Source: PVC group bacterium (ex Bugula neritina AB1)
GTDB lineage: Bacteria > GCA-001730085
DNA length: 64,000 nucleotides
Direction: 5' to 3'
Assembly: GCA_001730085.1 (NCBI GenBank)
Contig: MDLB01000107.1
Coordinates: 34,432-98,431 of the forward strand
The position numbers and the translations under genes are program-made. Shown piece after piece: positions 17,769-56,012 of this stretch. The notes beneath the pieces are model-generated. The model was not told the origin of the DNA. It searched no databases and saw nothing but the letters and a program-made list of their open reading frames with translations. The stretch's first letter is position 1. Each line of letters begins with the position of its first letter.

Positions 17769-18038
17769 TTAATCAATATTTTCTTCTACCAAAAGACTAA
17801 CAACATTGGAAGACACGTGAACGATACCCTTTTTTACAGACAAAGAGGTCGTTCCTTCATCAGTCTTCACATCAATGCGGCCATCTCTTAAAGGAGATAA
17901 GAAAGGTGCGTGCCCAAACATTAGTCCAACATCTCCATCAAGAGCAGGAACTAAAAGAAAAGACGCCTTTCCTTCCCATACTTTTTTCTCACGCGAAACA
18001 ATTTTTAAATCTAAAAACTGTTCTTCTTTTTTAGACAT
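17769..18038 (-). CDS. atpC: F1 ATP synthase epsilon subunit
   Basis: Short epsilon-like beta-sandwich sequence directly downstream of atpD. Confidence 0.8.
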   Translation of the reverse strand: MSKKEEQFLDLKIVSREKKVWEGKASFLLVPALDGDVGLMFGHAPFLSPLRDGRIDVKTDEGTTSLSVKKGIVHVSSNVVSLLVEENID

Positions 18039-23029: not shown

Positions 23030-23347
<318 letters not shown>

Positions 23348-23403
23348 TCAACTTCACTAAAGTTTTTCCTAAATCTAACAAAAGAAATTAAACTCTTACC
23401 TTA

Positions 23404-24177
23404 TCAATCACTCAGTTGCATAGAAATATACGTTGTCGCAAGCATTGCAAAAACAAAAGCTTGAACAAACCCTGCAAAAAGACCAAAAAAGGCATACGCA
23501 ACAAAGTATAAAATAGAAATCACCGGCGCCATCAAAGCATAAAGCGAACCTCCCGCTAAGCCCATCTGAGAAAAAGATTTTTCCACAATATCCGGACCCC
23601 CAACAGATGAAATCACCTTAAACACAACCATAGGAATCATCCCAAAAATAACCCCACCGCCAAACATATTTCCAAACAAACGAAAACAATGAGAAAGTGT
23701 TTGCCCAATCTCTCCTATAACATTAAGCGGCAACATAAAAATAAAGGGTTGCCCATAGCTTTTCAAGTAACCTCCAAGCCCTTTTGTACAAATCCCAGAA
23801 AAATGCGCAACAAAAAAAACAGTCAAAGCCAAAGACAAACAAACATTCAAGTCTTCTGTAGGACTAGACATCCCTGGAATAATCCCAATAATATTAGAAA
23901 CTAAAATAAACAGAAAAACAGTAGCAACAAAAGGAAAGTATTTTCTAGTCCTATCCTTCAACGTTCCCTCTAAAATAGAAAAAAAGCCACCCACAAACAT
24001 CTCAAGCAAAGACTGCTTTTTAGAGGGAAAGAACTTTAACTTGCGCGTAGATAGAAAAGAAAAAACGATCATGATCAAAAGAACAATAAAAATCATTCGC
24101 CATGTAACATCATTAAAAACTATTTCGCCCAATCTAGGAATCTGAATACTGCTTTTATGAACAGCGCCTACATCCAT
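23404..24177 (-). CDS. atpB: Fo ATP synthase a subunit
   Basis: Multi-TM protein with the conserved a-subunit Arg region (LSHCFRLFGNMFGG). Confidence 0.85.
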   Translation of the reverse strand: MDVGAVHKSSIQIPRLGEIVFNDVTWRMIFIVLLIMIVFSFLSTRKLKFFPSKKQSLLEMFVGGFFSILEGTLKDRTRKYFPFVATVFLFILVSNIIGIIPGMSSPTEDLNVCLSLALTVFFVAHFSGICTKGLGGYLKSYGQPFIFMLPLNVIGEIGQTLSHCFRLFGNMFGGGVIFGMIPMVVFKVISSVGGPDIVEKSFSQMGLAGGSLYALMAPVISILYFVAYAFFGLFAGFVQAFVFAMLATTYISMQLSD

Positions 24178-24185
24178 AAAAAAAT

Positions 24186-24449
24186 TTACGCTCCACCTTC
24201 AAAGTAAAGTAATAAAACACCTATAACAAGAGCATAAATACCACTACTGCTCGCAATAGCCATCGCAACAAGCATCACCTTCATAATGCCTGATCTTGTA
24301 TCTTCTCTTTTGGCCATTGCCTGCAACCCTATCGCTCCAACATTACCTGCACCAATCGCAGGACCAATAGCACCCAAACCCATACACATTGCGGCACCTA
24401 AAAAGGAAAAAATTCTTAAAAATTCAAGTTTTTCCATAAAAAAAATCAC
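24186..24449 (-). CDS. ATP synthase c-subunit paralog lacking the essential carboxylate (AIASSSGIYAL instead of AETTGIYAL)
   Basis: Aligns with atpE: [25 protein letters not shown] vs [23 protein letters not shown], and a GIYAL helix 2. 4-nt overlap with the upstream atpI-like gene. Confidence 0.6.
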   Translation of the reverse strand: MIFFMEKLEFLRIFSFLGAAMCMGLGAIGPAIGAGNVGAIGLQAMAKREDTRSGIMKVMLVAMAIASSSGIYALVIGVLLLYFEGGA

Positions 24450-24853
24450 CTTCTTCTACCTACAAATTCTGTCACAATTCGACAAATATTAGCTTCCTTA
24501 AGAAACAAAAACCCAATAAGAAAGCTCCAAAAAAAAGTAAAACCTTTGTGGATCAATAAATACAAAAAGAATCCAACAAGAAAGTAAAATATAATATAGG
24601 CAAAAAAGAAAAAAGTAAAGATTTTTTTAACAACGAAAACCTCTTGCGTCAATGCTTTTCGAACAAAAAGAAAACACGAAAAAAGATTCAACAAAGTTAA
24701 CGAAGTTCCTAAAGCCCAACACCTAAGAGCTTCCTTTCCTCCCATAAAAAAAACAACTAGCATTCCAACTAATAAACAAAAAAAAGAAAACCCAAAACCT
24801 TCTTGAGAGCTCCTAAACATACCTTCTTTAATAAAAGAGTTTTTTTTAAACAT
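24446..24853 (-). CDS. atpI: AtpI-like ATP synthase-associated membrane protein
   Basis: Small 4-TM hydrophobic protein at the head of the atp operon. Overlaps the c-like gene by 4 nt. Confidence 0.45.
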   Translation of the reverse strand: MFKKNSFIKEGMFRSSQEGFGFSFFCLLVGMLVVFFMGGKEALRCWALGTSLTLLNLFSCFLFVRKALTQEVFVVKKIFTFFFFAYIIFYFLVGFFLYLLIHKGFTFFWSFLIGFLFLKEANICRIVTEFVGRRR

Positions 24854-25011
24854 TTTCCATTTTTTCTATATCAAGATTAATCCATACGACAAAATGCTAA
24901 TCCATTTCTTTTGAAACTTCGAGACCCCTAAAAAATCAAAGACAGATTTTCAACTCATTCACTCAAAACCTCTAATTTTCTACCCAATAGCTATCCAAAA
25001 AAACCTAAACT

Positions 25012-25290
25012 TTAACCGTTTTCACCCTCAAACAAAGAATCCTCTTTATCAAAAAAATGTATCAAAACTTTCCGATAAACAGAATAAACACCACAAGCAA
25101 CTCCAGCAAAAAGACCAATACAAAAGCAAAGAGAAACATCTTCCCTTAAAAGCCTATCTAAAAAAAACCCCAAACTCCCTCCCAGCAAAGTAAAAAACAT
25201 CATCCTTAAACATAAAGAGAAAAAAGGAAGCCCTATATTTTTTTGCAACTCACCAAAATGTATTTTTTTTTTAAATTCATGATATTTCAC
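25012..25290 (-). CDS. Small 2-TM membrane protein (possible AtpZ-type ATP synthase-associated protein)
   Basis: 92 aa with two hydrophobic helices. Located between parB and atpI, only 8 bp from the parB stop. Confidence 0.3.
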   Translation of the reverse strand: MKYHEFKKKIHFGELQKNIGLPFFSLCLRMMFFTLLGGSLGFFLDRLLREDVSLCFCIGLFAGVACGVYSVYRKVLIHFFDKEDSLFEGENG

Positions 25291-25297
25291 AAAAAAA

Positions 25298-26164
25298 TCA
25301 CAAACCTTCTTCTTTTATACGACTCACCAATCGCTGCAAATCATCCAAAGAATAAAACTCTACAGAAATCAAACCTTTTTGAGAAGAGTCCGTATATTTA
25401 ACAGAAACTTTTGTTCCCAATGTCTCTGCTAAATCTTCCTCTAAAGCCATAACGTGTAAGTCTTGATTTTTCTCATCCTCTTCTGATTTAGCACCATACT
25501 TAGCCTTTTTGATCCGCTTCGTTAGATCTTTTGTGCTCAGCTTCTCATCGACCAATTCTTTTGCCACTTGCTGTTGCTCATCTTTTGAATCCAAAGACAT
25601 CAGCAATTTCGCACTCGCAAATGTGATTTCTCCAGAAGCTATCTTCGTTCGCACATCCTCAGGCAAAGACAATAACCGCAAAGTATTCGTGACCGAAGTT
25701 CTACTTAAGCCAATTTTTTGCCCCAAGTCTTCCTGTGTCATCTCAAATTTATCCATATAGTTTTTATAAGCAAAAGCTTTCTCAATCCAATTCAAGTCAC
25801 TTCTCTGAAGATTTTCTACCAAAGCTATCTCACAACTATCCAAATCATTAACTTCTTTAACTATCGCAGGAACTGTCATAAGACCTAAGTTCTTACAAGC
25901 ACGAAATCGCCTCTCACCAGCTATGATTTCATAACCATTTTCATCAGCCCCTTTTCGCACCAAAATAGGCTGTAAAACCCCCTTGTCCTTTATCGACTGA
26001 GTTAACTGTAAAAGCGCATCTGAATCAAATTCCAGCCTAGGCTGATTCTGATTAGGAACAATCAAAGCCAATGAAATATCAACAACTTTTGGCCCTTTAC
26101 CGGCTTCTTTTTTATCCGGAATCAATGATCGGAGTCCTCTCCCTAAAACAGCTCTTTCCATCAA
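25298..26164 (-). CDS. parB: Chromosome partitioning protein ParB/Spo0J
   Basis: ParB box (LQPILVR...YEIIAGERRFRA), HTH region (QEDLGQKIGLSRTSVTNTLRLL). Confidence 0.9.
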   Translation of the reverse strand: MMERAVLGRGLRSLIPDKKEAGKGPKVVDISLALIVPNQNQPRLEFDSDALLQLTQSIKDKGVLQPILVRKGADENGYEIIAGERRFRACKNLGLMTVPAIVKEVNDLDSCEIALVENLQRSDLNWIEKAFAYKNYMDKFEMTQEDLGQKIGLSRTSVTNTLRLLSLPEDVRTKIASGEITFASAKLLMSLDSKDEQQQVAKELVDEKLSTKDLTKRIKKAKYGAKSEEDEKNQDLHVMALEEDLAETLGTKVSVKYTDSSQKGLISVEFYSLDDLQRLVSRIKEEGL

Positions 26165-26295: not shown

Positions 26296-27075
26296 TTAAA
26301 CCTCAAGAAGAGAATATCTCCCCAGTAACTCTTGAGCTAATTCAATATAATTTTCGGCACCCACAGATCTCATTTGATACATAGTGACAGGTTTTCCAAA
26401 CCCAGGAGCCTCGCTCAAATAAGGATCCCTCTGAATAACTGAACGAAAAACCTTATCCTTAAAGTGATCACGAACCTCCTTAACAACATGAGTAGCAAGC
26501 TCGTTATCTTTTTCATACATCGTCAACAAAAAACCTTCAATAGCCAAATGCGGATTCAACCCTTCGACACACATATCAATGGTCTTTAAAAGCTGAGACA
26601 AACCTTCCAAGGCATAGTACTGACATTGTACAGGAACAAGAACAGAGTCCGCAGAGGTCAAAGCGTTAACTGTCAAAAGAGTTAGCGAGGGAGGACAGTC
26701 TATAACAATAAAATTATAACTTTCGCCCAAAACCTTCAAACACTTTTTTAAAATAAATTCTCTTCCCTCTCTACCCATCATTTCAATATCTAAACCAAAA
26801 AGATCTGCTTCCGCAGGAAGAACAAAAAGATTCGGAAGCTCTGTTGGAACAATAGCTTCAGCAAACATTTTTTCATACAACATAACATCGTAAAGTGTTT
26901 TTGCAGATTTCTTAGGTTTAACGCCTAAGCCACTAGTCCCATTCGATTGAGGGTCTATATCTATAAACAAAACCTTTTCACCTGCCATCGCAAGCGCAGC
27001 AGAGACATTGATCGCCGAGGTCGTCTTCCCAACACCCCCTTTTTGATTAGCAACAGCCATGATACGTTTTAACAT
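26296..27075 (-). CDS. parA: Chromosome partitioning ATPase ParA/Soj
   Basis: Deviant Walker A KGGVGKTT. The track ORF extends to 27138, but the likely start is M at 27075 (MLKRIMAVANQKGG), which avoids overlap with mnmG. Confidence 0.9.
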   Translation of the reverse strand: MLKRIMAVANQKGGVGKTTSAINVSAALAMAGEKVLFIDIDPQSNGTSGLGVKPKKSAKTLYDVMLYEKMFAEAIVPTELPNLFVLPAEADLFGLDIEMMGREGREFILKKCLKVLGESYNFIVIDCPPSLTLLTVNALTSADSVLVPVQCQYYALEGLSQLLKTIDMCVEGLNPHLAIEGFLLTMYEKDNELATHVVKEVRDHFKDKVFRSVIQRDPYLSEAPGFGKPVTMYQMRSVGAENYIELAQELLGRYSLLEV

Positions 27076-27115
27076 TTTTCCCAACCTTTCTCTCAAAACA
27101 CTACTATTTCGTCTT

Positions 27116-28918
27116 CTAAGATTTCCTATATTTCTCAATATGAATCATCAAAACAGATATATCTGCGGGGCTAACCCCCATAATTCTACTCGCCTGACCA
27201 AGATTCACAGGCAAAACTTGAGCCAATTTCTCTTTCGCTTCTTTTTTTAAACCTTGCAAGTTTTCAAAAGAGAAACCCTTAGGGATTTTTACATTATCCA
27301 AGTGCTTAACCTTTTCCAACCTCTTATTTTGACGCAAGAGATACCCCTCATACTTTATCTCAGACATGACAAGCTCTTTCAAATCATCTGAGATCGTAGG
27401 AAGTTCAGGAGACACCGGATACTGAGAAATATCCTCTCCTCCCCCCTTCAATAAGGCTTTCATCTTAGGGTCACGCACTATTAAGCCCTTCAGTCTTTTC
27501 AATTCCTTACTCAACGTTTTTTTCTTATCAAGAAAGTCGCAATATTGCGCATAAGGGATTAACCCTACCCGATACCCATACTCTGTTAGACGCATATCAG
27601 CATTATCATTCCGAAGATAAAGACGGTTCTCCGCAGCAGAAGTAAACATGCGATAAGGTTCTTCTGTATTCTTAGTAATCAAGTCATCAATAAGAACACC
27701 TATATATGACTCATCCCTTGACAAGGTTAACGGCTTCTCTTTCTTGATCTTCAAAGCTGCATTAATCCCCGCAACCAAACCCTGCGCAGCTGCTTCCTCA
27801 TAACCAGAAGTTCCATTAACTTGCCCTGCCAAATAAAGACCCTCTATGTTTTTCGTCTCTAACGTTGGGTTTAATTGATTCGGGAACAAAAAATCATATT
27901 CTACAGCATAACCATATCTCAGAACTTTAGCCTTTTCCAAACCTTCAATACTATGAATCATCTCCAATTGCACTTCCTTAGATAAGCTCGTCGACAAACC
28001 ATTCACATAAACCTCATTTGTCGAAAGACTCTCTGGCTCTAAAAAAATTTGATGCCTTTCTCTTTCAGGAAAGCGAACGATTTTATCTTCAAAAGAAGGA
28101 CAATAACGAGGACCTATTCCTTTAATTTTTCCTGTAAAAAGAGGAGAACAATCTAAATTATTTTCAACAATCTTATGTGTTTTAAAATTCGAATAAGTCA
28201 CATGGCAAGAAATATGATCCAACCTTTCCTTTGGAGGAAAAAACGAAAATGTTCTCAAAGGAACATCGCTCGGCTGATCTAATAAGCCTTCATAGTTAAT
28301 CGTTTGCATATCAATACGAGCAGGGGTTCCTGTCTTTAGACGTCCCAACCTAAAACCCATCTCTTGCAAAGCATCAGACAAGCCTACAGAAGCATTTTCT
28401 CCATCCCTACCACCATCATACCCCTTTAACCCTCTATGAATATATCCATTCAAAAAAGTTCCAGAAGTAATAACAAGAGCCTTAGAAAAACAATCCTCAC
28501 CATCTTCCAAAGAAACTCCCTTAACCTTATCTCCATCCATAAGCAAATGAGTAACCATGCCATTTTTAACCGTTAAGTTTTCTTGAGAAGCGACAATTCG
28601 TTGCATCCTTTGAGCATACAAATATTTATCAGACTGTACTCGATAAGCACGAACAGCCGAACCTTTTTTAGTATTCAAGACCCGAAACTGAATCGCAGTT
28701 GCATCTGCATTCTTACCCATTTCACCACCCAGAGCATCAACCTCTCTAGCTAACTGACTTTTGGCAAGCCCTCCGATAGAAGGATTGCACGACATTTTTC
28801 CAATAACAGAGGAATCCATGGTTATCATCATTATATTAAGACCCATACGGCTGGCAGCTAAGCTCGCCTCACAACCAGCATGACCACCTCCAACAACTAT
28901 AATATCAAAAATTTCCAT
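27116..28918 (-). CDS. mnmG: tRNA uridine 5-carboxymethylaminomethyl modification enzyme MnmG (GidA)
   Basis: FAD-binding VVGGGHAGCEA at the N-terminus, full-length GidA similarity. Confidence 0.95.
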   Translation of the reverse strand: MEIFDIIVVGGGHAGCEASLAASRMGLNIMMITMDSSVIGKMSCNPSIGGLAKSQLAREVDALGGEMGKNADATAIQFRVLNTKKGSAVRAYRVQSDKYLYAQRMQRIVASQENLTVKNGMVTHLLMDGDKVKGVSLEDGEDCFSKALVITSGTFLNGYIHRGLKGYDGGRDGENASVGLSDALQEMGFRLGRLKTGTPARIDMQTINYEGLLDQPSDVPLRTFSFFPPKERLDHISCHVTYSNFKTHKIVENNLDCSPLFTGKIKGIGPRYCPSFEDKIVRFPERERHQIFLEPESLSTNEVYVNGLSTSLSKEVQLEMIHSIEGLEKAKVLRYGYAVEYDFLFPNQLNPTLETKNIEGLYLAGQVNGTSGYEEAAAQGLVAGINAALKIKKEKPLTLSRDESYIGVLIDDLITKNTEEPYRMFTSAAENRLYLRNDNADMRLTEYGYRVGLIPYAQYCDFLDKKKTLSKELKRLKGLIVRDPKMKALLKGGGEDISQYPVSPELPTISDDLKELVMSEIKYEGYLLRQNKRLEKVKHLDNVKIPKGFSFENLQGLKKEAKEKLAQVLPVNLGQASRIMGVSPADISVLMIHIEKYRKS

Positions 28919-29788
28919 TAAAAACTACACCCTTTATCTCTAAAAAAAAGCCTTAATTATCAAGAAAGTTCTCTAAAAAATCAAAAAGAATATTCTTTAA
29001 AACAATAAAAATACAAAAACATTTCGTTTCAAAAAATAACTAATCTTCGCTTATGTATGTTTTAAAAATAACAAAAAATATAAAAAATCTTACAAAATAT
29101 TTTACTACGGAAACATTATACAAATAAACGAAAAGTGAAATTTTATAAAAATTCATATTTTAAAACGATTATCGTCTCATATTTTATTTTAATTTTCAAG
29201 AAAAGAAGATTTTAAAGAGTAAAGTTTTTTCACAAAAGATCAAAAACGTACAACTCATTCATCAAAAACAATACCCCTACAACTCTCTTCCCATCAAACA
29301 ACGTTCCCAAAGGAACATCACTGAACATTTTTTTCCATATAAGAATTTTAAACCTTCACCTTTAATAAAGAAGAGTAGGGCAGAGAACCTTCAATATCTA
29401 TTAGCTCAAATAAAATTGCTAAGAAAAACAAAATACAAAGTCTCTAAAAAAGTCATACCTTAAAATTGCAAAAAAAATCCTAACACCAAAACCTAAAAGA
29501 TCTTTATCCTCTCTTAAAAGATATTCCTATAAAGCTCTTTCCATCAAACAACGTTCCCAAGGGAACATCACTAAATATTTTTTCCATATAAGAATCCTAA
29601 ACCCTCGCCTTTAATAAAGAAGAGTCGGACAGGGGAGCCTCAACATCTATTAGTTCAAATAAAAATCCTGAGAAAAACAAAACACAAAGTCTCTAAAAAA
29701 GTCATACCTTAAAATTGCAAAAAAATCCTAACACCAAAATCTAAGAGATCTTCATCCTCTCTTAAAAGATATTCCTATAAAGCTCTTT

Positions 29789-30660
29789 CCATCAAACAAC
29801 GTTCCCAAGGGAACATCACGAAATATTTTTTCCATACAAGAATATAAAACCTTCACCTTTAATAAAGGAGAGTAGGACAGAGAAGCTTCAATATCTATTA
29901 GCACGAATAAAAATCCTAACACCAAAACCTAAGAAATCTGCATCCTCCCTTAAAAGATATTCCTATAAAGCTCTTTCCATCAAACAACATTCCCAAGAGA
30001 ACATCACTAAATATTTTTTCCATACAAGAATATAAACCCTTCACCTTTAATAAAGGAAAGTAGGGCAGAGAAGCTTCAATATCTATTAGCACGAATAAAA
30101 ATCCTAACACCAAAACCTACGAGATCTGCATCCTCTCTTAAAAGATATCCCTATAAAGCTCTTTCCATCAAACAACGTTCCCAAGGGAACATCACTGAAT
30201 ATTTTTTCCATATAAGAATTTTAAACATTCACCCTTAATAAAGGAGAGTAGGGCAGAGAAGCTTCAATATCTATTAGCACGAATAAAAATCCTGAGGAAA
30301 ACAAGATACAAAGTCTCTAAAAAAGTCATACCTTAAAATTACAAAAAAATCCTAACACCAAAACCTAAGAGATCTCTATCCTCTCTTAAAAGATATCCCT
30401 ATAAAGCTCTTTCCATCAAACAACGTTCCCAAGGGAACATCACTAAATATTTTTTCCATATAAGAATTTCAAACCTTCACCTTTAATAAAGGAGAGTCGG
30501 ACAGGGGCGCCTCAACATCTATTAGTTCAAATAAAAATCCTGAGAAAAACAAAACACAAAGTCTCTAAAAAAGTCACACCTTAAAATTGCAAAAAAATCC
30601 TAACACCAAAATCTAAGAGATCTTCATCCTCTCTTAAAAGATATTCCTATAAAGCTCTTT
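29789..30660. repeat. Higher-order repeat copy 1 (S-S-L-L, 872 bp)
   Basis: Unit boundaries at 29789, 29977, 30165, 30413 and 30661. The first ~376 bp are near-identical to copy 2. Confidence 0.85.
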
Positions 30661-31530
30661 CCATCAAACAACGTTCCCAAGGGAACATCACGAAATATTT
30701 TTTCCATACAAGAATATAAAACCTTCACCTTTAATAAAGGAGAGTAGGACAGAGAAGCTTCAATATCTATTAGCACGAATAAAAATCCTAACACCAAAAC
30801 CTAAGAAATCTGCATCCTCCCTTAAAAGATATTCCTATAAAGCTCTTTCCATCAAACAACATTCCCAAGAGAACATCACTAAATATTTTTTCCATACAAG
30901 AATATAAACCCTTCACCTTTAATAAAGGAAAGTAGGGCAGAGAAGCTTCAATATCTATTAGCACGAATAAAAATCCTAACACCAAAACCTACGAGATCTG
31001 CATCCTCTCTTAAAAGATATCCCTATAAAGCTCTTTCCATCAAACAACGTTCCCAAAGGAACATCACTGAACATCTTTTCCATATAAGAATTTTAAACCT
31101 TCACCTTTAATAAAGGAGAGTCGGGCAGGGAAGTCTCAATATTTATTAGTTCAAATAAAAACCCTGAGAAAAACAAAACACAAAGCCTCTAAAAAAGTCA
31201 CACCTTAAAATTGCAAAAAAATCCTAACACCAAAATCTAAGAGATCTTCATCCTCTCTTAAAAGATATTCCTATAAAGCTCTTTCCATCAAACAACGTTC
31301 CCAAGGAAACATCCCTGAAATTTTTTTCCATACAAGAATTTAATTCCTTCATTTTTAATAAAGGAGACTACGGCAGGGAAGCCTCAATATTTATTAGTTC
31401 AAATAAAATTGCTAAGAAAAAAAATACAAAGTCTCTAAAAAAGTCATACCTTAAAATTACAAAAAAATCCTAATACCAAAAACTAAGAGATCTGCATCCT
31501 CTCTTAAAAGATATTTCTATAAAGCTCTTT
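30661..31530. repeat. Higher-order repeat copy 2 (S-S-L-L, ~870 bp)
   Basis: Unit boundaries at 30661, 30849, 31037, 31285 and 31531. Confidence 0.85.
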
Positions 31531-31958
31531 CCATCAAACAACGTTCCCAAGGGAACATCACTGAATATTTTTTTCCATACAAGAATTTAATTCCTTCATT
31601 TTTAATAAAGGAGACTAGGACAGGGAAGCGTCAATATCTATTAGCTCAAATAGAATTGCTAAGAAAAACAAAATACAAAATCTCTAAAAAGAGACAAATC
31701 TTAAACTCATAAAAAAAATACAAAAGACAACAGTCTAAACAAACAAAAACTCTAGAAAAAATATCATTAAATATTTTTTTCATATCAATAAATTTCAATT
31801 AAATATAAAAAAAGAGAAGTCGAAGAGCGAAAGATAGCAAAGTAAATATCAGATCAAAAAGAAAGAGGAGAAGTTTCGAAAAAGATAACTAAAAAGGGAA
31901 TATTCAAAAAATAAAAAAACTCATAAGAAAAAAACCGTCAGAAAAAATTTAAGAAAAA

Positions 31959-33350
31959 CTACTTCCCAATACAAAAATTAGCAAAGAATTTTTTCAAAAT
32001 ATCTTTATCGTACTCTTCTCCCAAAAGAGCAGATAAACTCTCAAGAGCCTCCTTTAAAAAAGTCACCAAAATCTCTTGATGGAAATCCAAAGTTAAATCA
32101 AGAGCTTCCCTCAAAGAGGTCAATGCCTCTTTGACAAAATCAATCTGCCTTTGATTCAACATAAAGACATCCTCATCAAAACTTAAATCTTTCCTTAATT
32201 CAAACTTCAATTTTTCTTCTAGTTCAAACAAAGAGTCCCAGTTCAATGCACTAACAAAAAAAGGCTCAAATGGTGCAACCATTTTTTGTATACTTTTAGC
32301 GATATCCTCTTGCAAACAATCCTTCTTATTTACAAGAACAAAAAGCCTTTGCCCAGAAGATTTCTCCGCCAAAGTCTTACCCCAAAGAACTCTATCTTCC
32401 TCTTCAAAAGAACTTCCGCTCAAAACAAAAAAAATCACATCTGCTTTTTTCACTTCTTCTGAGGTTTTTTGAACACCTATTTTTTCAACAGAATCAACGG
32501 TCTCTCTCAAACCTGCTGTATCAACCAATCGAACACATCTATCAGCAAAAACAATTGCAGCATCAACAACATCCCTCGTCGTTCCCGGAACATTACTAAC
32601 AATCGCTCGATTTTTCCTCAAAAAAGCATTAAAAAGACTAGATTTGCCCACATTTGGCTTCCCAGCAAAAACAAGAGTAATATCATTGCTCAAAGATTTA
32701 GATCGCTTAAAAGAGGCCTCAAGAGCTTCTAAATCAGAAATAATCTTACTTAATTTTTCAGAATAAACATTTTGACTCAAAAAATCGATTTGCTCTTGAG
32801 AAAAATCAAGCTCAGCCTCCAAATAAAGCAAAAGACTTTCTAAAGAATCCTTAGCCGATCGAACTCTCAAAGAAAGATCTCCACCAACTTGCCTAACTAA
32901 GCGCTGTGCCGCACTCCGACTTTTAGAGTGAATAAGATCTGCAACAGCCTCCGCCTGCATCAAGTCCTTTTTTCCCAAAAGAAAAGCTCTTTTAGTAAAC
33001 TCTCCCGGCTCAGCCAAAGACGCGCCGAGCTCAACTGTTTTTTCTAAAATAAAATCTACAATAACAGGACTACCATGACAATGAAATTCAACAAGATCCT
33101 CCCCCGTATAACTATTCGGAGCTAAAAACTTCACAACCATCAACTCATCGATCTTTTCTTGTTTTTGACTAGGATCAACCAAATGAGCCAAATGCAAAGT
33201 TCTCGAAGCAGAATTCTTAAGAAGTTTTCCCGAAAAAAGCTGTAACAACTTATCAGAAATAAAAACAGACTGTGACCCTGTCATCCTCAAAACAGCCAAA
33301 GCACTACAAGCAACGGGAGTAGCTGGCGCAATTATCGTTTCGTGAAACAT
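31959..33350 (-). CDS. mnmE: tRNA modification GTPase MnmE (TrmE)
   Basis: G domain (GKPNVGKSSL, DTAG), C-terminal CIGK tetrapeptide. Confidence 0.95.
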   Translation of the reverse strand: MFHETIIAPATPVACSALAVLRMTGSQSVFISDKLLQLFSGKLLKNSASRTLHLAHLVDPSQKQEKIDELMVVKFLAPNSYTGEDLVEFHCHGSPVIVDFILEKTVELGASLAEPGEFTKRAFLLGKKDLMQAEAVADLIHSKSRSAAQRLVRQVGGDLSLRVRSAKDSLESLLLYLEAELDFSQEQIDFLSQNVYSEKLSKIISDLEALEASFKRSKSLSNDITLVFAGKPNVGKSSLFNAFLRKNRAIVSNVPGTTRDVVDAAIVFADRCVRLVDTAGLRETVDSVEKIGVQKTSEEVKKADVIFFVLSGSSFEEEDRVLWGKTLAEKSSGQRLFVLVNKKDCLQEDIAKSIQKMVAPFEPFFVSALNWDSLFELEEKLKFELRKDLSFDEDVFMLNQRQIDFVKEALTSLREALDLTLDFHQEILVTFLKEALESLSALLGEEYDKDILKKFFANFCIGK

Positions 33351-36307: not shown

Positions 36308-36670
36308 CTCTCATATAAAAATAAACAATACCTATAAAGAGCTATCCCAGAACCTCTCCACATTTATCCTTACAAAAAGATAGTTTAAGACTATATATTT
36401 CTTCATGCGAAATAAATTAGATTAACCCGCAATACCTCATAATTTTCCATCAAAAAACATAAAGCATTTTTCAAAGCAATATCAATACCCTAATCTAAAT
36501 AATCGTATCATAAAGTTTTATTTTAACAAGCAATTCAATCTGAGAGATAAATCGGAATAAAATCATAATTTCTCCTTTTGTCAGAAGGCATTTATAAAGA
36601 ACATAAATAGAAATTTTTGATTTTTTAAGAAATATTTGAAAACACCAAGATCAAGAAGGTGAAATAAAAA

Positions 36671-36752
<82 letters not shown>

Positions 36753-37527
36753 ATCTTAGAAAATAATTATAACAAAACACAGATTTCTTGTCAAGTTCAA
36801 ATAATTAAAAAGTTTTTAAACATCGTAAAAATAATTAATCATATTTTTAAAAAAACAATCTCATCTAAAAACTATTTTAATTTAATATTTTTTAAAATTA
36901 TCTGTAAATTTTACAAATAATTATTTTAAATAAATTAATAAAATCCTCCTCCCAATCTATAGAAAGCAAAAAAAAGATATAACAATATCATTATTAAAAT
37001 TTAAATAAAAATAATTTAAAATTTAAAATTAAATAAAAATAAATACATTTACAAAAAACTTCATTTATCGTTTTTAAGAAAATAAAAATAAGATTTTTTT
37101 ATTCCTTTAAATAAAAAAGGTTGCTATTCTCTTGAACTAAAAAAATATCTCAGCTATAATAAATATGATTTTTAGTGCCTTCTGATTTGAAAAGTTTTTA
37201 ACTTTAAAAATAACCTTTCTCATTAAAAAAGTTAAAAAATCTTCCATTTTGCAAGGACTGGAGTAAAAAAATATTATAGGCAACCCATAAATCAAATATA
37301 CATTTCATTAGTCTTAAATATCATTGAATAAAAAAATACTTTTAGAGAGTTTATTTAAGAGAATTTTTATTAAATATTTTTAACTAAGAAATAAAATATA
37401 ATAAAAAAGCTAGAAAAATCTAAATATATTTCAGCTATATCTATTTAAAATGTGGTACTGTAAATTAAAATTAGATTTTTATTCATAAATTTAAAGACTT
37501 AAAGACTAAGGAAAACAAAGTGCACCA

Positions 37528-49569: not shown

Positions 49570-50287
49570 TCTAAAGATTTATATCTTATAATAAAGATTG
49601 TGACAATAATCTCGATACCTTGAAAAAAGGTTAACAGCTAGTGCTTTTTACGGCTAAAAGTAACACTTATAATCTTACTTAAGAAAATTAAAATAAGCTA
49701 TTTTTTTTTTTGACTACCAAAAATCATAAAAAAGATAACCTGTGGATAACATGTGTCTAATTTATGAATACAACTATTTTAAGAAAAAAAATAAATCTTA
49801 TTACCCAAATTCTAACTAGAAAAAAGCAGTAACAGCTGGCTAATTTATAATATTAAAGATTTAGAAAAAAATATATAAAAAAAAGATCCAAAAGAATAGA
49901 TCAATTACATTTATTTTAATTTTATATATTATTATTTAGCATATATATATTTATTTTAAAAGAAATTATAATATTTTTTCTTGATCAAAGAATTTAAAAA
50001 AGAAAACTTATATAAAAAAATCAAACCATATTCATCATTGTGTACATCAAGTTCTCAAGTTATAATACAACATGTGCATAACTTGTGCGTAAGTATTGAT
50101 TTTATAAACAACAAGATCTTTGGACAACATTCTACATCCCCAATAAGGGCATTATGAATGTTTGTACAAAAAGCTTTATACACCTCTGCTCCCCTTTTCT
50201 CACAAGTGATTAGATACTGAGATAAAAAGTAGAAGCTAAATGCTTTCTTTCTGAAGAAGTAAAAAGTATATAGGAAGTTTAGACATA
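49570..50287. promoter_or_regulatory. Candidate oriC left part: DnaA box TGTGGATAA (49741-49749) with an adjacent GATAACC half-site, followed by an extremely AT-rich stretch (about 49880-49990, candidate DNA-unwinding element) upstream of dnaA
   Basis: A perfect reverse-complement TTATCCACA consensus. A 920-bp gene-free AT-rich region immediately upstream of dnaA. Confidence 0.55.
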
Positions 50288-51643
50288 ATGACATTCAATA
50301 ACATAGAAACTTTAAAGGAAGCTCTAAAAGACCTGATTGGAAAAAAATCCTACGAAACTTGGTTTCAAAGTTTGGATATAGAAATGACAGAGCAGGATAG
50401 TTGGACAATATGGACACCTAATCTTTTTTATAAGCAAAGGGTTGAGCAACAGTTTAAAATCCCAATCAAAGAGGTCTCAAAAGCACTCTCCTGTGAGATA
50501 GATATTCATGTTAATCAAAAAAATCATTTATCTAAAAATGTTCCATCTAAAACAGAAGAAGCTTCTGAACAACCTTTTCAAAAAAAAAAAACAACATCTA
50601 CAGATGAGCCTCAAAGTGTCTCTTCTTCGAAGTCACTTTTTAAGTACTCCTTTGATAACTTTATTGTTGGTCCTAATAACCAGTTAGCACATGCAATCGC
50701 CCTTGCCGTTTCCACAAATCCAGGTCAAACATATAATCCTTTTTTTCTATATAGTCCTGTAGGATTAGGGAAAACACATATTATGCAAGCCATCGCAATG
50801 AGTATTCAAAAACATAACCCCGAATATAAAATCAAATACTTATCCACAGAACAGTTCACAAATGAACTGATCGCATCCATCCAAAATAAAACAATTGAAC
50901 AGTTTAGAACGAAATACAGAACTATGGATGTTTTGCTTTTGGATGATATCCAGTTTCTAGAAGGAAAAGAACGAACACAAGAAGAGTTCTTTCACACCTT
51001 TAATCAATTGTATAATGAAAACAAACAAATAATACTTAGTTCTGACCGTTCTCCCACAGATATCCCACGCTTAGAAGATCGCCTTATTTCACGTTTTGAA
51101 TGGGGAATAAAAGCTGATATAGAAGCACCAGACTTTGAAACACGTGTGGCTATTTTGCAAAAAAAATCAGAAAATACACAGGCTCGTATTTCTCCAGATA
51201 TCTTACAGTACATAGCCTCTAACTTCACATCAAATATTCGAGAGCTGGAAGGTGCTTTACTAAAAGTCTTAGCTCTTAGTCAATTCCAATCCACAGAAAT
51301 ATCCCTAGATACTGTTCAGCAACATTTTCAGCCACAAAAGAAAGCTCCAACTGTTCATTTAACACCTGATCGGATCCAAAATATCATATGTGAACACTTT
51401 AATATAAGTATAGAAGACCTTAACTCTTCAAAAAGGAAACGTATGATTGTAATTCCTCGACAAATAGCTATGTACCTCTGTCGAGAGTTAACAGCCTATT
51501 CTTTTCCAGAAATAGGTGCTTTTTTTGGAGGAAAAGACCATACAACTATTATGCATGCGCATGAAAAGTTAAAAAAAAGCTATCAAACGGATCAGGAATT
51601 AAAAATAACTATTGATAAGCTAATAGAAAAAATACGTGGATAA
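50288..51643 (+). CDS. dnaA: Chromosomal replication initiator protein DnaA
   Basis: AAA+ Walker A GPVGLGKTH, a sensor region, and a C-terminal DNA-binding domain (box-binding helix ...IGAFFGGKDHTTIMHA). Confidence 0.97.
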   Translation: MTFNNIETLKEALKDLIGKKSYETWFQSLDIEMTEQDSWTIWTPNLFYKQRVEQQFKIPIKEVSKALSCEIDIHVNQKNHLSKNVPSKTEEASEQPFQKKKTTSTDEPQSVSSSKSLFKYSFDNFIVGPNNQLAHAIALAVSTNPGQTYNPFFLYSPVGLGKTHIMQAIAMSIQKHNPEYKIKYLSTEQFTNELIASIQNKTIEQFRTKYRTMDVLLLDDIQFLEGKERTQEEFFHTFNQLYNENKQIILSSDRSPTDIPRLEDRLISRFEWGIKADIEAPDFETRVAILQKKSENTQARISPDILQYIASNFTSNIRELEGALLKVLALSQFQSTEISLDTVQQHFQPQKKAPTVHLTPDRIQNIICEHFNISIEDLNSSKRKRMIVIPRQIAMYLCRELTAYSFPEIGAFFGGKDHTTIMHAHEKLKKSYQTDQELKITIDKLIEKIRG

Positions 51644-52104
51644 GTTGGTAGATCCTGTGGATAACCTATTGATAAGTGTCATAGATATCCACAGTCAGCT
51701 AAACAATTCCTTGTTGTATTCACAAAAAATATCACTTTTTTCCCAAGGGATCAACAAATAAAACTTTTTGTTCTTCCCGTAATTTAGAGAGTTTTATAGG
51801 TTATCCACAATTTTAATCCACCTATGATAATGATGATGATTTTTATAATCTATAATAAAATAGAAGTATGGCTACAGTGAGACATATCGCTCAATGGATA
51901 ATCAGATATCTTGAGATTCGATATCTAAGAGCTTCTGATAAAGAACTTTTTATCTCTTATCCTAGTTATATTTTTTAGTTTATGAGCTAATTAGTACGGA
52001 ACTTTATCGTAGGCTGATTCAAAATTAGCAAAAAATAGAATAAAGCATAATATTATTAAATATTTTTTAATAAATAAGTCTTTAAGTAAAAAAAACAAAA
52101 AAAT
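51635..52104. promoter_or_regulatory. Candidate oriC right part / dnaA-dnaN intergenic DnaA-box cluster
   Basis: CGTGGATAA (51635-51643, overlapping the dnaA stop), TGTGGATAA (51657-51665), ATATCCACA (51685-51693), TTATCCACA (51801-51809), a weak TTAATCCAC (about 51813-51821), then an AT-rich tract. Confidence 0.6.
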
Positions 52105-52170
52105 ATGTCTGATTTTTTTGTAAAGTCTCGCTATAATAGGATTTACATCCATTTTAGAAAGGTTAATTTT

Positions 52171-53274
52171 ATGTATTTTGAATGTACACCGAAAGATCTT
52201 CTTTTTGCCTTAAATATTGTATCGCATACTGTAAGCGAACATTATACGATCCCTATTTTGTCCTATATGCTCCTAGAAACAGAAGGGAAAGATCACCTTA
52301 TTATTTCTGCAACTGATTTAAAAATAAGTGTAAAAGTTAGAGTTAAAGCTCAGATCCAAATGTCGGGTCAAACAACTTTGCCTGCCAAAATTCTGACACA
52401 AATAACAAAAGAATTACCCAATGAACCGATTTTTTTTAAGCAAAAATCAACTGATTTATTGCAAATAGACTGTGCTTCTAGCTCTTTTAATGTATCAACA
52501 TTACCCAAAGATGAATTTCCTCCGATTGTTTTCTGGGAGGAACACGCTATTTCAGTTTGCCAACAGGATTTAAAAAAAGCTCTGCAACAAACAGTCATAT
52601 CTATTTCTACAGATAATTCAAGACAAACTTCTATGAGTGGTGTCTTTTTTGAGTGCACACATGATAGTATTCTGTTTGTAGCGACGGATGGGAAACGGTT
52701 ATCGCATGTAACGATCCCTGCGAAAACAGGAATTCCAGAAGATTCAAAAAAAACAGGTATTTTGCCTGGAAAAATTTCACAAGAATTATGCAAAAATCTT
52801 GGTAAAGATGATTTTGTGGATATAATTGTGGGTAACAAAGAGATTATTTTTCATATGGGAGAAGTCTCTTATATGTGTCAATTGATCGACGAAAGGTTTC
52901 CTAATTTTTTAGGAGTAATACAGAAGCCTATAAAAAACTCTATAAAATTAAACAGACAAGCTTTTGTAGGAGCATTACGTAGATCATCCGTAATGGTAGA
53001 TGATAAAATTAATCGTATAAAAATTGATATTATTAAAGGCAAAATGGTTATAACTTCTGGAAATGATAACTTTGGAGCCTCGGAAGAGTTCATAGAAATT
53101 GATTATGATGGTGAGTCATTAGCTATTGGTTTTGCACCTGTATATCTCTTAGAGGGTCTTAAAGTTATGACTTCAGAAGAGATTACGTTCGATTTAACGG
53201 AGAGGGAAGAGTCTGCTATTCTTAGAGAAAGTGATGATTTTTTATACCTTGTTATGCCAATGATTCTTACATGA
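52171..53274 (+). CDS. dnaN: DNA polymerase III beta sliding clamp
   Basis: Three-domain beta-clamp similarity. Preferred start is ATG 52171 (MYFECTPKDLL, preceded by AGAAAGG) rather than the track start 52105. Confidence 0.9.
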   Translation: MYFECTPKDLLFALNIVSHTVSEHYTIPILSYMLLETEGKDHLIISATDLKISVKVRVKAQIQMSGQTTLPAKILTQITKELPNEPIFFKQKSTDLLQIDCASSSFNVSTLPKDEFPPIVFWEEHAISVCQQDLKKALQQTVISISTDNSRQTSMSGVFFECTHDSILFVATDGKRLSHVTIPAKTGIPEDSKKTGILPGKISQELCKNLGKDDFVDIIVGNKEIIFHMGEVSYMCQLIDERFPNFLGVIQKPIKNSIKLNRQAFVGALRRSSVMVDDKINRIKIDIIKGKMVITSGNDNFGASEEFIEIDYDGESLAIGFAPVYLLEGLKVMTSEEITFDLTEREESAILRESDDFLYLVMPMILT

Positions 53275-53304
53275 GAATTTTTACAAAAAAGATGAGGTGA
53301 ATTT

Positions 53305-56012
<2,708 letters not shown>

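What the first reader, a model, noticed from the sequence alone, without database searches (positions are those of the whole stretch)
29270..31730. Large satellite-like higher-order tandem repeat array between mnmG and mnmE
About 2.5 kb of non-coding DNA consists of 11 tandem units in two size classes (S ~188 bp, L ~248 bp), arranged L L [S S L L] [S S L L] L. This is an 872-bp higher-order repeat duplicated with about 376 bp of near-perfect identity, implying very recent expansion. Arrays of 200-bp-scale units with higher-order structure are typical of eukaryotic satellites and are rare in bacterial chromosomes. It is not CRISPR: there are no unique spacers and whole-unit identity is about 90%. 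The array splits mnmG and mnmE, which are normally adjacent, and lies 3 kb from parAB and about 20 kb from the dnaA oriC. Each unit carries an inverted repeat, an A/T-rich tract and an AGGAG-like element. Possible roles are a protein-binding array (partition, nucleoid or origin-proximal organising site), a tandem sRNA locus, or a copy-number-variable contingency locus.
Basis: seen in the sequence. Interest (0 to 1): 0.85.

Follow-up and report, generated by a model that had tools for sequence, protein, structure and literature searches.

The report
Intergenic long-period tandem repeat array
A 2.5-kb stretch of non-coding DNA between two housekeeping genes of an uncultured bryozoan-associated bacterium is made of 11-12 head-to-tail copies of a 188/248-bp unit; it is real, found nowhere else, shows no convincing sign of coding for a protein or RNA or of being a protein-binding site, and most resembles the variable tandem repeats known from other host-associated bacteria.

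Summary
The array is real: 11 units (L L S S L L S S L L L; 248 and 188 bp) at 29222-31710, plus a decayed partial twelfth unit at 31760-31823. It fills most of the largest non-coding gap in the window, between mnmG and mnmE. The window comes from the short-read SPAdes MAG AB1_div (a PVC-group bacterium from Bugula neritina). Two independent k=31 assemblies confirm both junctions and break inside the array. Copy number is therefore a minimum. The "recent" exact duplication (479 bp) is also what one graph node crossed twice would give.

S units are L units minus 60 bp, deleted between two AAAAATCCT repeats. The unit has no match in Rfam, Pfam, NCBIfam, plasmids, phages, genome, metagenome or viral collections, or 5.8 billion proteins. 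It is also absent from the nearest relatives, which carry a transporter gene at this position.

The small minus-strand ORF is interrupted and shows no purifying selection. Folding and covariation are no better than controls. There is no parS, DnaA box, promoter or terminator in the units.

Best reading: a lineage-specific non-coding VNTR made by slippage or unequal recombination, as in Wolbachia and Ehrlichia. A weak minus-strand RNA signal keeps an sRNA array possible. Interest is low to moderate.

The parts
29222..31710 (.). Tandem array of 11 units, in the order L L S S L L S S L L L. Unit starts: 29222, 29471, 29719, 29907, 30095, 30343, 30591, 30779, 30967, 31215, 31462.
29222..29470 (.). 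Unit 1 (L, 249 bp), the edge unit next to mnmG. Its last ~50 nt on the minus strand are unrelated to the other units. It shows 39-50 mismatches to the other cores.
   Evidence: The Logan contig L001 reads AAAAGA instead of A7 at 29338-29345.
29719..30094 (.). Units 3 and 4 (S, 188 bp each). They are identical to units 7 and 8 (30591-30966).
   Evidence: 0 mismatches
29706..30184 (.). Exact 479-bp block, repeated at 30578-31056. It is either the latest unequal-crossover duplication or one assembly-graph node traversed twice.
30578..31056 (.). Second copy of the exact 479-bp block.
30285..30344 (.). Example of the 60-bp L-specific segment. In L units it lies between two AAAAATCCT direct repeats (30285 and 30345). 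S units keep one copy of the repeat, so S equals L with a deletion between these short direct repeats.
29553..29566 (.). Example of the per-unit inverted repeat GTTCCC-AA-GGGAAC (hairpin B). It is perfect in 5 of 9 distinct units. All variants are C>T on the minus strand.
31760..31823 (.). Degenerate partial twelfth unit at the mnmE-side edge. It overlaps the only sigma-70-like hexamer pairs near the array (31798-31760, minus strand).
   Evidence: local alignment score 46; shuffles 26.9 +/- 3.4, maximum 41.
31711..31958 (.). Unique AT-rich spacer between the mnmE stop codon and the array.
   Evidence: Identical in the independent contig L010.
28919..29221 (.). Unique AT-rich spacer (22-25% GC) between the array and the mnmG start. 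It carries promoter-like sites and short 24/31-bp repeats.
   Evidence: Identical in the independent contig L001.
27116..28918 (-). mnmG (gidA), the flanking gene downstream of the array on the minus strand.
31959..33350 (-). mnmE (trmE), the flanking gene upstream of the array on the minus strand.

Best explanation
The region is a lineage-specific, non-coding, long-period tandem repeat (a minisatellite or VNTR-type locus). It sits in the spacer between the mnmE and mnmG transcription units of the uncultured PVC-group bacterium AB1_div.

Shown:
- There are 11-12 head-to-tail units.
- The short class derives from the long class by a 60-bp deletion between two 9-bp direct repeats.
- The edge units are decayed.
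- One block of at least 479 bp is duplicated exactly.
- No homologue exists anywhere else that could be searched.

Inferred:
- The array arose and keeps changing by replication slippage and/or unequal homologous recombination between units. The unit-internal hairpins may favour mispairing, and partial homogenisation keeps the units about 90% alike.
- It has no sequence-specific product. At most it acts as a spacer, or as part of a read-through leader ahead of mnmG.
- Its copy number probably varies between cells or strains.
For: - Array anatomy.
- S units equal L units minus the 60 bp between AAAAATCCT repeats.
- Edge decay of unit 1 and a degenerate twelfth unit.
- The unit lengths of 188 and 248 bp are not multiples of 3.
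- The small minus-strand ORF carries TGC, TGA, TAA or TAG at codon 28 and is frameshifted in units 1 and 11. Distinct synonymous to non-synonymous changes are 4:8, and variable sites per codon position are 3/3/6.
- No protein family matches. The only hit among 5.8 billion proteins is the same contig's own hypothetical protein.
- No Rfam family matches, even at E<=10.
- Folding z-scores are mostly unremarkable: whole units -1.4 and +0.6 (minus strand), -3.0 and -0.1 (plus strand); four 117-nt minus-strand segments -0.5 to +0.6. The minimum-free-energy folds differ between units.
- Hairpin pairing does not beat shuffled controls.
- No promoter or terminator consensus lies inside the units.
- No parS or DnaA boxes.
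- The unit is absent from the rest of the window and from the relatives' loci.
- It is absent from the genome, metagenome, viral, plasmid and phage collections.
- The relatives carry an SDF transporter gene at this position, followed in L008 by a repeat-free spacer before mnmG.
- GC skew and GC content match the flanking chromosome.
- Precedent: Wolbachia VNTR-141 and VNTR-105 have full and internally deleted periods with hairpins. E. ruminantium has long-period non-coding repeats (PMC3287509, PMC10710844).
Against: - Variable sites are not spread evenly. There is a 26-column invariant run (permutation P=0.014), and the 3' two-thirds of the unit is better conserved than the 5' third.
- In the three hairpin stems, 9 variant types keep pairing as G-U on the minus strand, 2 would do so on the plus strand, and 1 on neither. 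My one-sided binomial estimate is about 0.03. This hints at selection on a minus-strand transcript.
- Copy-number variation, the hallmark of a VNTR, could not be tested.
- Only one genome carries the array, so lack of conservation is uninformative about function within that lineage.
Confidence: 0.55

Rival explanations
1. The region is a tandem array of small RNA genes, or one long non-coding RNA made of repeated modules. It would be transcribed from the minus strand, the same direction as mnmE, mnmG and replication, like the 12 tandem NsiR1 copies of Nostoc.
For: - Hairpin-stem variants favour G-U pairing on the minus strand 9:2.
- Paired cells are 94.8% on the minus strand against 89.7% on the plus strand.
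- The 3' part of the unit is better conserved than the 5' part.
- Units end in a U-run on the minus strand.
- Promoter-like hexamers lie just upstream of the array on the minus strand.
- Precedent for multi-copy tandem sRNA genes: PMC9045159.
Against: - No promoter-like or terminator-like site lies inside any unit.
- Minus-strand folds are no more stable than dinucleotide shuffles, and the minimum-free-energy folds differ between units.
- No pair shows real compensatory change, and the shuffled controls reach the observed values in about 105 of 500 trials.
- No Rfam match.
- GGA motifs are not enriched, so a CsrA-sponge reading is unsupported.
Confidence: 0.17
2. The region is a tandem array of micro-protein genes. 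Each unit would encode a 27-35-aa peptide (MEKIFSDVPLGTLFDGKSFIGISFKRG[CRSLRFWC]) on the minus strand, as in multicopy peptide or type I toxin loci.
For: - An ATG-initiated ORF of at least 27 codons is present in 9 of 11 units.
- The GenBank record annotates a 64-aa hypothetical protein, AB834_06980, in a short unit.
- A gene caller called a 35-aa ORF in unit 1 of the independent contig.
Against: - Codon 28 is TGC, TGA, TAA or TAG in different units, and units 1 and 11 are frameshifted.
- Synonymous to non-synonymous changes are 4:8, about the neutral ratio, with no significant third-position excess.
- The nearest purine-rich motif ends 14 nt before the ATG.
- The peptide has no transmembrane-length hydrophobic stretch.
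- No Pfam or NCBIfam match and no homologue in 5.8 billion proteins.
- An open frame of this length is roughly what chance gives in this composition (my own estimate).
Confidence: 0.07
3. The region is an origin-proximal protein-binding array, acting as a centromere-like, nucleoid-organising or regulator-titrating site. The per-unit palindrome GTTCCC-AA-GGGAAC would be the binding site.
For: - One 14-bp inverted repeat per unit, regularly spaced.
- The array lies 2-3 kb from parAB and about 19 kb from the dnaA/DnaA-box cluster.
Against: - The palindrome is imperfect at the DNA level in 4 of 9 distinct units.
- It matches canonical parS at only 8 of 14 core positions (my comparison), and no parS-like site lies in the array.
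- There are no DnaA boxes between 25757 and 42232.
- The relatives have no counterpart at this locus.
- Unit lengths of 188 and 248 bp are far longer than known centromere iterons (from general knowledge).
Confidence: 0.06
4. The architecture is largely an assembly product. The locus does hold this repeat, but the true number and order of units differ from the window. The exact duplication might also merge two array alleles present in the sampled population.
For: - The source is a short-read SPAdes metagenome bin at about 21x k-mer coverage (PMC5041132).
- Independent k=31 assemblies stop inside the edge units, and one joins the unit-1 tail to unit-9-type sequence.
- At k=77 three unitigs are reused, and a second traversal with the same multiplicities exists. 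Extra cycles, or a two-allele mixture, would give the same graph.
Against: - Both outer junctions are confirmed base for base.
- At k=77 only 2 traversals are possible, and at k=127 only 1.
- Nine distinct unit variants exist, so at least nine units (or that many variants across alleles) must be present.
Confidence: 0.15

Closest known systems
Wolbachia intergenic VNTR-141 and VNTR-105 loci (PMC3287509)
   Same: - Intergenic and non-coding, with head-to-tail periods of 100 bp or more.
- Full-length periods are mixed with internally deleted ones, giving two size classes.
- Each period contains hairpin-forming palindromes and short internal direct repeats.
- Arrays exceed 1 kb in a small, AT-rich, host-associated genome.
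- They are explained by slipped-strand mispairing plus concerted evolution.
   Different: - Units here are longer (188 and 248 bp, against 105 and 141 bp) and the array is longer (2.5 kb, 11-12 units).
- Units are more diverged (88-93% alike, against 98-99%).
- There is no sequence similarity.
- Copy-number polymorphism between strains, shown for Wolbachia, could not be tested here.
Ehrlichia ruminantium long-period non-coding tandem repeats (PMC10710844; Table 4 of PMC3287509)
   Same: Long periods (up to 471 bp) in non-coding DNA between housekeeping genes, producing unusually long intergenic regions that expand and contract.
   Different: In E. ruminantium this is genome-wide (201 loci, 6.3% of the genome). 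Here only one such locus is seen in 64 kb, and the rest of the genome could not be examined.
NsiR1 tandem sRNA array of Nostoc sp. PCC 7120 (PMC9045159)
   Same: About a dozen tandem direct repeats in an intergenic region upstream of a gene. Central copies are identical and edge copies diverged.
   Different: Each NsiR1 repeat has its own defined promoter and yields a ~60-nt sRNA. Here no promoter or terminator is detectable in the units and there is no structural support. Expression is unknown.
Eukaryotic satellite DNA with higher-order repeats
   Same: Unit length is in the 170-250-bp range, and a multi-unit block is duplicated.
   Different: - Only one block is duplicated, and only 479 of its 872 bp are identical.
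- The total is 2.5 kb rather than kilobases to megabases.
- The array sits in a bacterial chromosome, with both junctions confirmed.
- Its strand composition matches the flanking bacterial DNA.

Membership tests
Long-period intergenic tandem repeat / VNTR of bacteria | Head-to-tail direct repeats lying in non-coding DNA between genes | tested here: met
   The unit lengths of 188 and 248 bp are not multiples of 3, and no ORF runs through the array.
Long-period intergenic tandem repeat / VNTR of bacteria | Signs of slippage or unequal recombination: size classes differing by a deletion between short direct repeats, duplicated multi-unit blocks, decayed edge units | tested here: met
   - The 60-bp segment is flanked by AAAAATCCT repeats.
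- A 479-bp exact block is duplicated.
- Unit 1 and the partial twelfth unit are decayed.
Long-period intergenic tandem repeat / VNTR of bacteria | Copy number varies between strains or within a population | not testable with these tools
   Only one assembly spans the array, and no reads or other isolates are available. The two assemblies disagree inside unit 1, which does not settle the point.
CRISPR array | Short (about 24-48 bp) repeats separated by unique spacers of similar length | tested here: not met
   Whole 188/248-bp units repeat at 88-93% identity, with no unique spacers.
Tandem sRNA gene array (NsiR1-like) | Each repeat carries its own promoter and terminator and yields a discrete transcript | tested here: not met
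   No sigma-70-like promoter or intrinsic-terminator-like site lies inside the units. Caveats: promoters of this phylum may differ, and transcription could not be measured.
Tandem sRNA gene array (NsiR1-like) | A conserved RNA secondary structure supported by stability or covariation | tested here: inconclusive
   - Minus-strand z-scores range from -1.4 to +0.6.
- Pairing is no better than shuffles.
- Stem variants do favour minus-strand G-U pairing 9:2.
Chromosomal or plasmid centromere (parS / iteron array) | Repeated copies of the ParB-binding palindrome (TGTTNCACGTGAAACA type) or short iterons | tested here: not met
   No parS-like match lies in the array at up to 3 mismatches. The unit palindrome is imperfect in 4 of 9 distinct units.
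DnaA-box cluster (oriC, datA or DARS type) | Clustered TTATCCACA-like boxes | tested here: not met
   No box with up to 1 mismatch lies between 25757 and 42232. The boxes cluster around dnaA-dnaN instead.
Multicopy small-protein or type I toxin loci (LDR, Ibs/Sib type) | An intact, conserved small ORF in each repeat, usually a hydrophobic peptide, under purifying selection | tested here: not met
   - There are stop codons at codon 28 in 5 units and frameshifts in 2 units.
- Synonymous to non-synonymous changes are 4:8.
- There are no homologues.
Satellite DNA with higher-order repeat structure | Multi-unit blocks much more alike than the units within a block, across several block copies | tested here: inconclusive
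   There are two blocks only. They are identical over 479 bp, and the other 393 bp differ at 70 positions. The identity may reflect the assembly path.

The most novel reading that the evidence does not exclude
The array is a functional, origin-proximal battery of at least 11 co-oriented RNA (or micro-peptide) modules. They would be expressed from the leading strand between mnmE and mnmG, forming a new multicopy regulatory RNA family private to a deep-branching PVC/NPL-UPA2 lineage. Copy number would set the dosage. The minus-strand-specific G-U bias in the hairpin stems and the unevenly conserved unit core are the only hints.
Probability: 0.15. Interest if true: 0.55.

Novelty: new member of a known kind. 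Interest (0 to 1): 0.25.

Why it matters
If the array is simply a VNTR, it matters in three practical ways.
- It marks a repeat that breaks short-read assemblies of this MAG.
- It is a potential strain-typing locus for an uncultured bryozoan associate.
- It extends long-period intergenic repeats from Anaplasmataceae to a deep PVC-group lineage, supporting the idea that such repeats accumulate in small, AT-rich, host-associated genomes.

It would matter more if the existing RNA-seq data from the same sample showed unit-length transcripts. That would make it one of the largest tandem sRNA arrays known in bacteria.

Tried and rejected
- Homologues elsewhere: two conserved unit segments were scanned against genome contigs, metagenome contigs and (the first only) viral contigs, with no hit. 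blastn against plasmids and phages found nothing. A unit profile run with nhmmer against the window and all fetched loci hit only the array.
- Known RNA families: none at Rfam gathering thresholds. At E<=10 there are only chance-level PsrR1 hits.
- CsrA/Rsm-sponge idea: there are six conserved GGA motifs per unit on the minus strand, but GGA is not enriched over dinucleotide shuffles (P=0.16-0.38). No csrA lies in the window.
- Peptide families: Pfam and NCBIfam gave nothing. The protein database returned only the contig's own hypothetical protein. Exact look-ups of the ORF products found no other contigs.
- Unit derived from the mnmG 5' end or leader (MEIFD... against MEKIFSD...): the local alignment is not above shuffles (score 26 against 23.2 +/- 2.7).
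- Unit derived from the transporter gene that relatives carry here: tblastn found no remnant.
- Integron attC or MITE origin: the unit has no inverse-core/core pair and no terminal inverted repeats at unit boundaries (by inspection).
- Chimeric host DNA: rejected, because both junctions are reproduced in independent assemblies and the composition and skew match the flanks.
- One paper look-up failed because the paper is not held.
Full report
**1. The observation**

Tandem Repeats Finder reports periods of 188 bp (91-93% matches) and 248 bp (88-91%) over 29285-31717. The repeat finder gives start-to-start spacings of 249, 248, 188, 188, 248, 248, 188, 188, 248 and about 247. A 31-nt core occurs 11 times with at most 2 mismatches, only here, against 0 expected in shuffles. 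A profile of the units finds 11 full matches and nothing else in the 64-kb window.

It fills most of a 3,040-bp gene-free gap, the largest in the window. The flanking genes are as stated:
- parB at 25298-26164
- parA at 26296-27138
- mnmG at 27116-28918
- mnmE at 31959-33350
- then yidC, yidD and rnpA, all on the minus strand

dnaA lies at 50288-51643, with DnaA boxes clustered around it.

**2. Source and reliability**

MnmE is 100% identical to the protein of 'PVC group bacterium (ex Bugula neritina AB1)', on a 102-kb contig. This is the AB1_div bin of Miller et al. 2016. It is a SPAdes short-read metagenome assembly with 108 contigs, 1.91 Mb, 34.7% GC, about 21x k-mer coverage and a longest contig of 102 kb. 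The authors assigned it to candidate division NPL-UPA2 (PMC5041132).

Two independent k=31 assemblies of the project's runs reach the array from either side and stop inside the edge units.
- L001 (SRR4020084) matches the window from mnmG through the spacer into unit 1.
- L010 (SRR4020083) is identical from mnmE to 31590, inside unit 11.

The locus and both junctions are therefore real and are not a chimera with host DNA. The interior rests on one assembler.

At k=77 the array reduces to 7 unitigs, three of which are reused (105 bp three times, 450 bp twice, 91 bp twice). The window is one of two traversals with those multiplicities. Additional cycles, or a mixture of array alleles, would give the same graph.

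The two '872-bp' blocks share an exact 479-bp stretch (29706-30184 = 30578-31056). The remaining 393 bp differ at 70 positions. Exact identity is what a node crossed twice must give. 'Very recent expansion' is therefore possible but not demonstrated, and the copy number is a minimum. L001 also joins the unit-1 tail to unit-9-type sequence (AAAAGA instead of A7 at 29338-29345), which shows that details inside the array depend on the assembly.

**3. Anatomy**

- There are nine distinct unit sequences: units 3 and 7 are identical, as are units 4 and 8. Cores otherwise differ at 10-26 of 192 columns. Unit 1 differs at 39-50 because its mnmG-side tail is unrelated sequence.
- A degenerate partial twelfth unit lies at 31760-31823 (score 46 against shuffles 26.9 +/- 3.4, maximum 41). 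Both edges of the array are thus decayed, as expected for tandem arrays.
- L units carry two AAAAATCCT repeats 60 bp apart and S units carry one. The S class is therefore an L unit with a deletion between short direct repeats.
- Each unit has three short inverted repeats, given here on the minus strand: CCTTT-ATT-AAAGG, GTTCC-CTTG-GGAAC and TAAGAGA-N9-TCTCTTA.
- GC content (30-35%) and the strongly negative GC skew continue those of the flanking minus-strand genes. This fits resident chromosomal DNA on the leading strand left of oriC.

**4. Relatives**

The nearest MnmE homologues are only 54%, 46%, 44% and 43% identical.

In the loci recovered, mnmE is followed by an opposite-strand SDF-family transporter gene. 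In L008 a 0.9-kb repeat-free spacer then precedes mnmG-parA-parB-atp, the same order as in the window. In L002 other genes follow and mnmG is not in the locus. No remnant of that transporter is detectable in the window, and no relative's locus matches the unit.

mnmE and mnmG are thus already separate units in this clade. The array is specific to AB1_div as far as can be seen.

**5. Is it coding?**

On the minus strand, 9 of 11 units hold an ATG ORF, MEKIFSDVPLGTLFDGKSFIGISFKRG(CRSLRFWC).

Against a coding role:
- Codon 28 is TGC, TGA, TAA or TAG in different units, and units 1 and 11 are frameshifted by an A6/A7 run.
- Distinct changes are 4 synonymous to 8 non-synonymous, with 3/3/6 variable sites at codon positions 1/2/3. 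This is close to neutral.
- The nearest purine-rich motif ends 14 nt before the ATG.
- Pfam and NCBIfam find nothing.
- A search of 5.8 billion proteins returns only the contig's own 64-aa 'hypothetical protein AB834_06980'.

The plus strand has no ORF of 20 codons or more in the units.

**6. Is it a structured or discrete RNA?**

- There is no Rfam family at gathering thresholds, and only chance-level hits at E<=10.
- Whole-unit folds give z = -1.4 and +0.6 on the minus strand, and -3.0 and -0.1 on the plus strand.
- A putative 117-nt minus-strand segment gives z = -0.5 to +0.6, with different minimum-free-energy folds in different units.
- For the three hairpins, 94.8% of cells pair on the minus strand and 89.7% on the plus strand. 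Shuffled controls reach these values in 105 and 108 of 500 trials, and there are no genuine compensatory changes.
- No sigma-70-like promoter or intrinsic-terminator-like site lies inside the units. The only promoter-like hexamers lie at 31798-31760 (minus strand), in the decayed twelfth unit.
- GGA motifs are not enriched over dinucleotide shuffles.

Two weak signals remain. Stem variants are 9 G-U-type on the minus strand, 2 A-C-type and 1 other (my one-sided binomial estimate is about 0.03). Variable sites also avoid a 26-column run (P=0.014).

**7. Is it a DNA-binding array?**

No parS-like site lies in the array. There are no DnaA boxes between 25757 and 42232. The 14-bp palindrome is imperfect in 4 of 9 distinct units. 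There is no similarity to plasmids or phages.

**8. Conclusion and comparison**

The best-supported reading (about 0.55) is a lineage-specific, non-coding, long-period tandem repeat. It would be generated and remodelled by slippage or unequal recombination and have no sequence-specific product.

The closest known cases are:
- The Wolbachia VNTR-141 and VNTR-105 loci. These are intergenic, have 141- and 105-bp periods containing hairpins, mix full and internally deleted periods, and reach up to about 7 copies. They are explained by slipped-strand mispairing and concerted evolution (PMC3287509).
- The genome-wide long-period repeats of Ehrlichia ruminantium: 201 loci, 6.3% of the genome, periods up to 471 bp (PMC3287509 Table 4; PMC10710844).

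The present array is longer and its units are more diverged. The defining VNTR property, copy-number polymorphism, could not be tested.

A tandem sRNA array like NsiR1 (PMC9045159) stays possible (about 0.17) on the strength of the weak minus-strand signal. The other rivals are a micro-protein array (about 0.07), a protein-binding array (about 0.06) and a substantially mis-assembled architecture (about 0.15).

I rate it a new member of a known kind, with low to moderate interest. The public reads and RNA-seq from the same BioProject could settle both copy number and transcription.

Noticed in passing
window 29338-29345 (unit 1) against L001:35-45: The independent Logan contig reads GGAAAAGATG where the window has GGAAAAAAATG. 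With the Logan version the unit-1 ORF is an intact 35-aa frame (MEKMFSDVPLGTLFDGKRVVGVLFLMNELYVFDLL), which was called as a gene. In the window it is frameshifted. This may be a homopolymer or path difference between assemblies, or real heterogeneity.
   Followed up: partly
window 27116-27138; 28919-31958; L008:4050-6208; L002:11410-13864: The nearest relatives carry a 411-aa SDF-family transporter gene on the opposite strand directly after mnmE. The window has none, and no remnant of it. No rsmG lies between mnmG and parA, and the listed parA ORF (upstream-most TTG start) overlaps the mnmG 3' end by 23 nt.
   Followed up: partly
window 23030-25290 (minus strand): The F-type ATP synthase operon downstream of parB has two c-subunit genes (PF00137): 24186-24449 and 23030-23332. 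They flank the a-subunit gene (23404-24177). Upstream of them lie an ATPase_gene1-like ORF (25012-25290) and a 135-aa ORF with no family (24446-24853). Relative L008 has the same layout.
   Followed up: no
window 49741-53773: Exact or near-exact DnaA boxes cluster between dnaA and dnaN (51635-51809), upstream of dnaA (49741, 50073) and just after dnaN (53753-53773). The likely oriC is in the dnaA-dnaN spacer, about 20 kb from the array.
   Followed up: partly
window 17985-18000: A palindromic parS-like sequence, TGTTTCGCGTGAGAAA, has 3 mismatches to the consensus. It is the best candidate in the window, but the number of such matches is at chance level.
   Followed up: no
window 36308-37527: This is the second-largest non-coding gap (1.2 kb), between fur and sufB. 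It holds tRNA-Met (36671-36747) and a short AT-rich 22-bp repeat (36994-37036). The rest was not examined.
   Followed up: no
window 28962-29039: Short AT-rich tandem repeats (periods 24 and 31, about 2 copies each) lie in the 22-25% GC spacer directly upstream of mnmG, next to promoter-like hexamers (28984-28956 and 29215-29186, minus strand).
   Followed up: no
window 29916-30110 and 30788-30982 (minus strand): The GenBank record annotates a 64-aa 'hypothetical protein AB834_06980' inside a short unit of the array. It has no homologue outside this contig and is probably a spurious call.
   Followed up: yes
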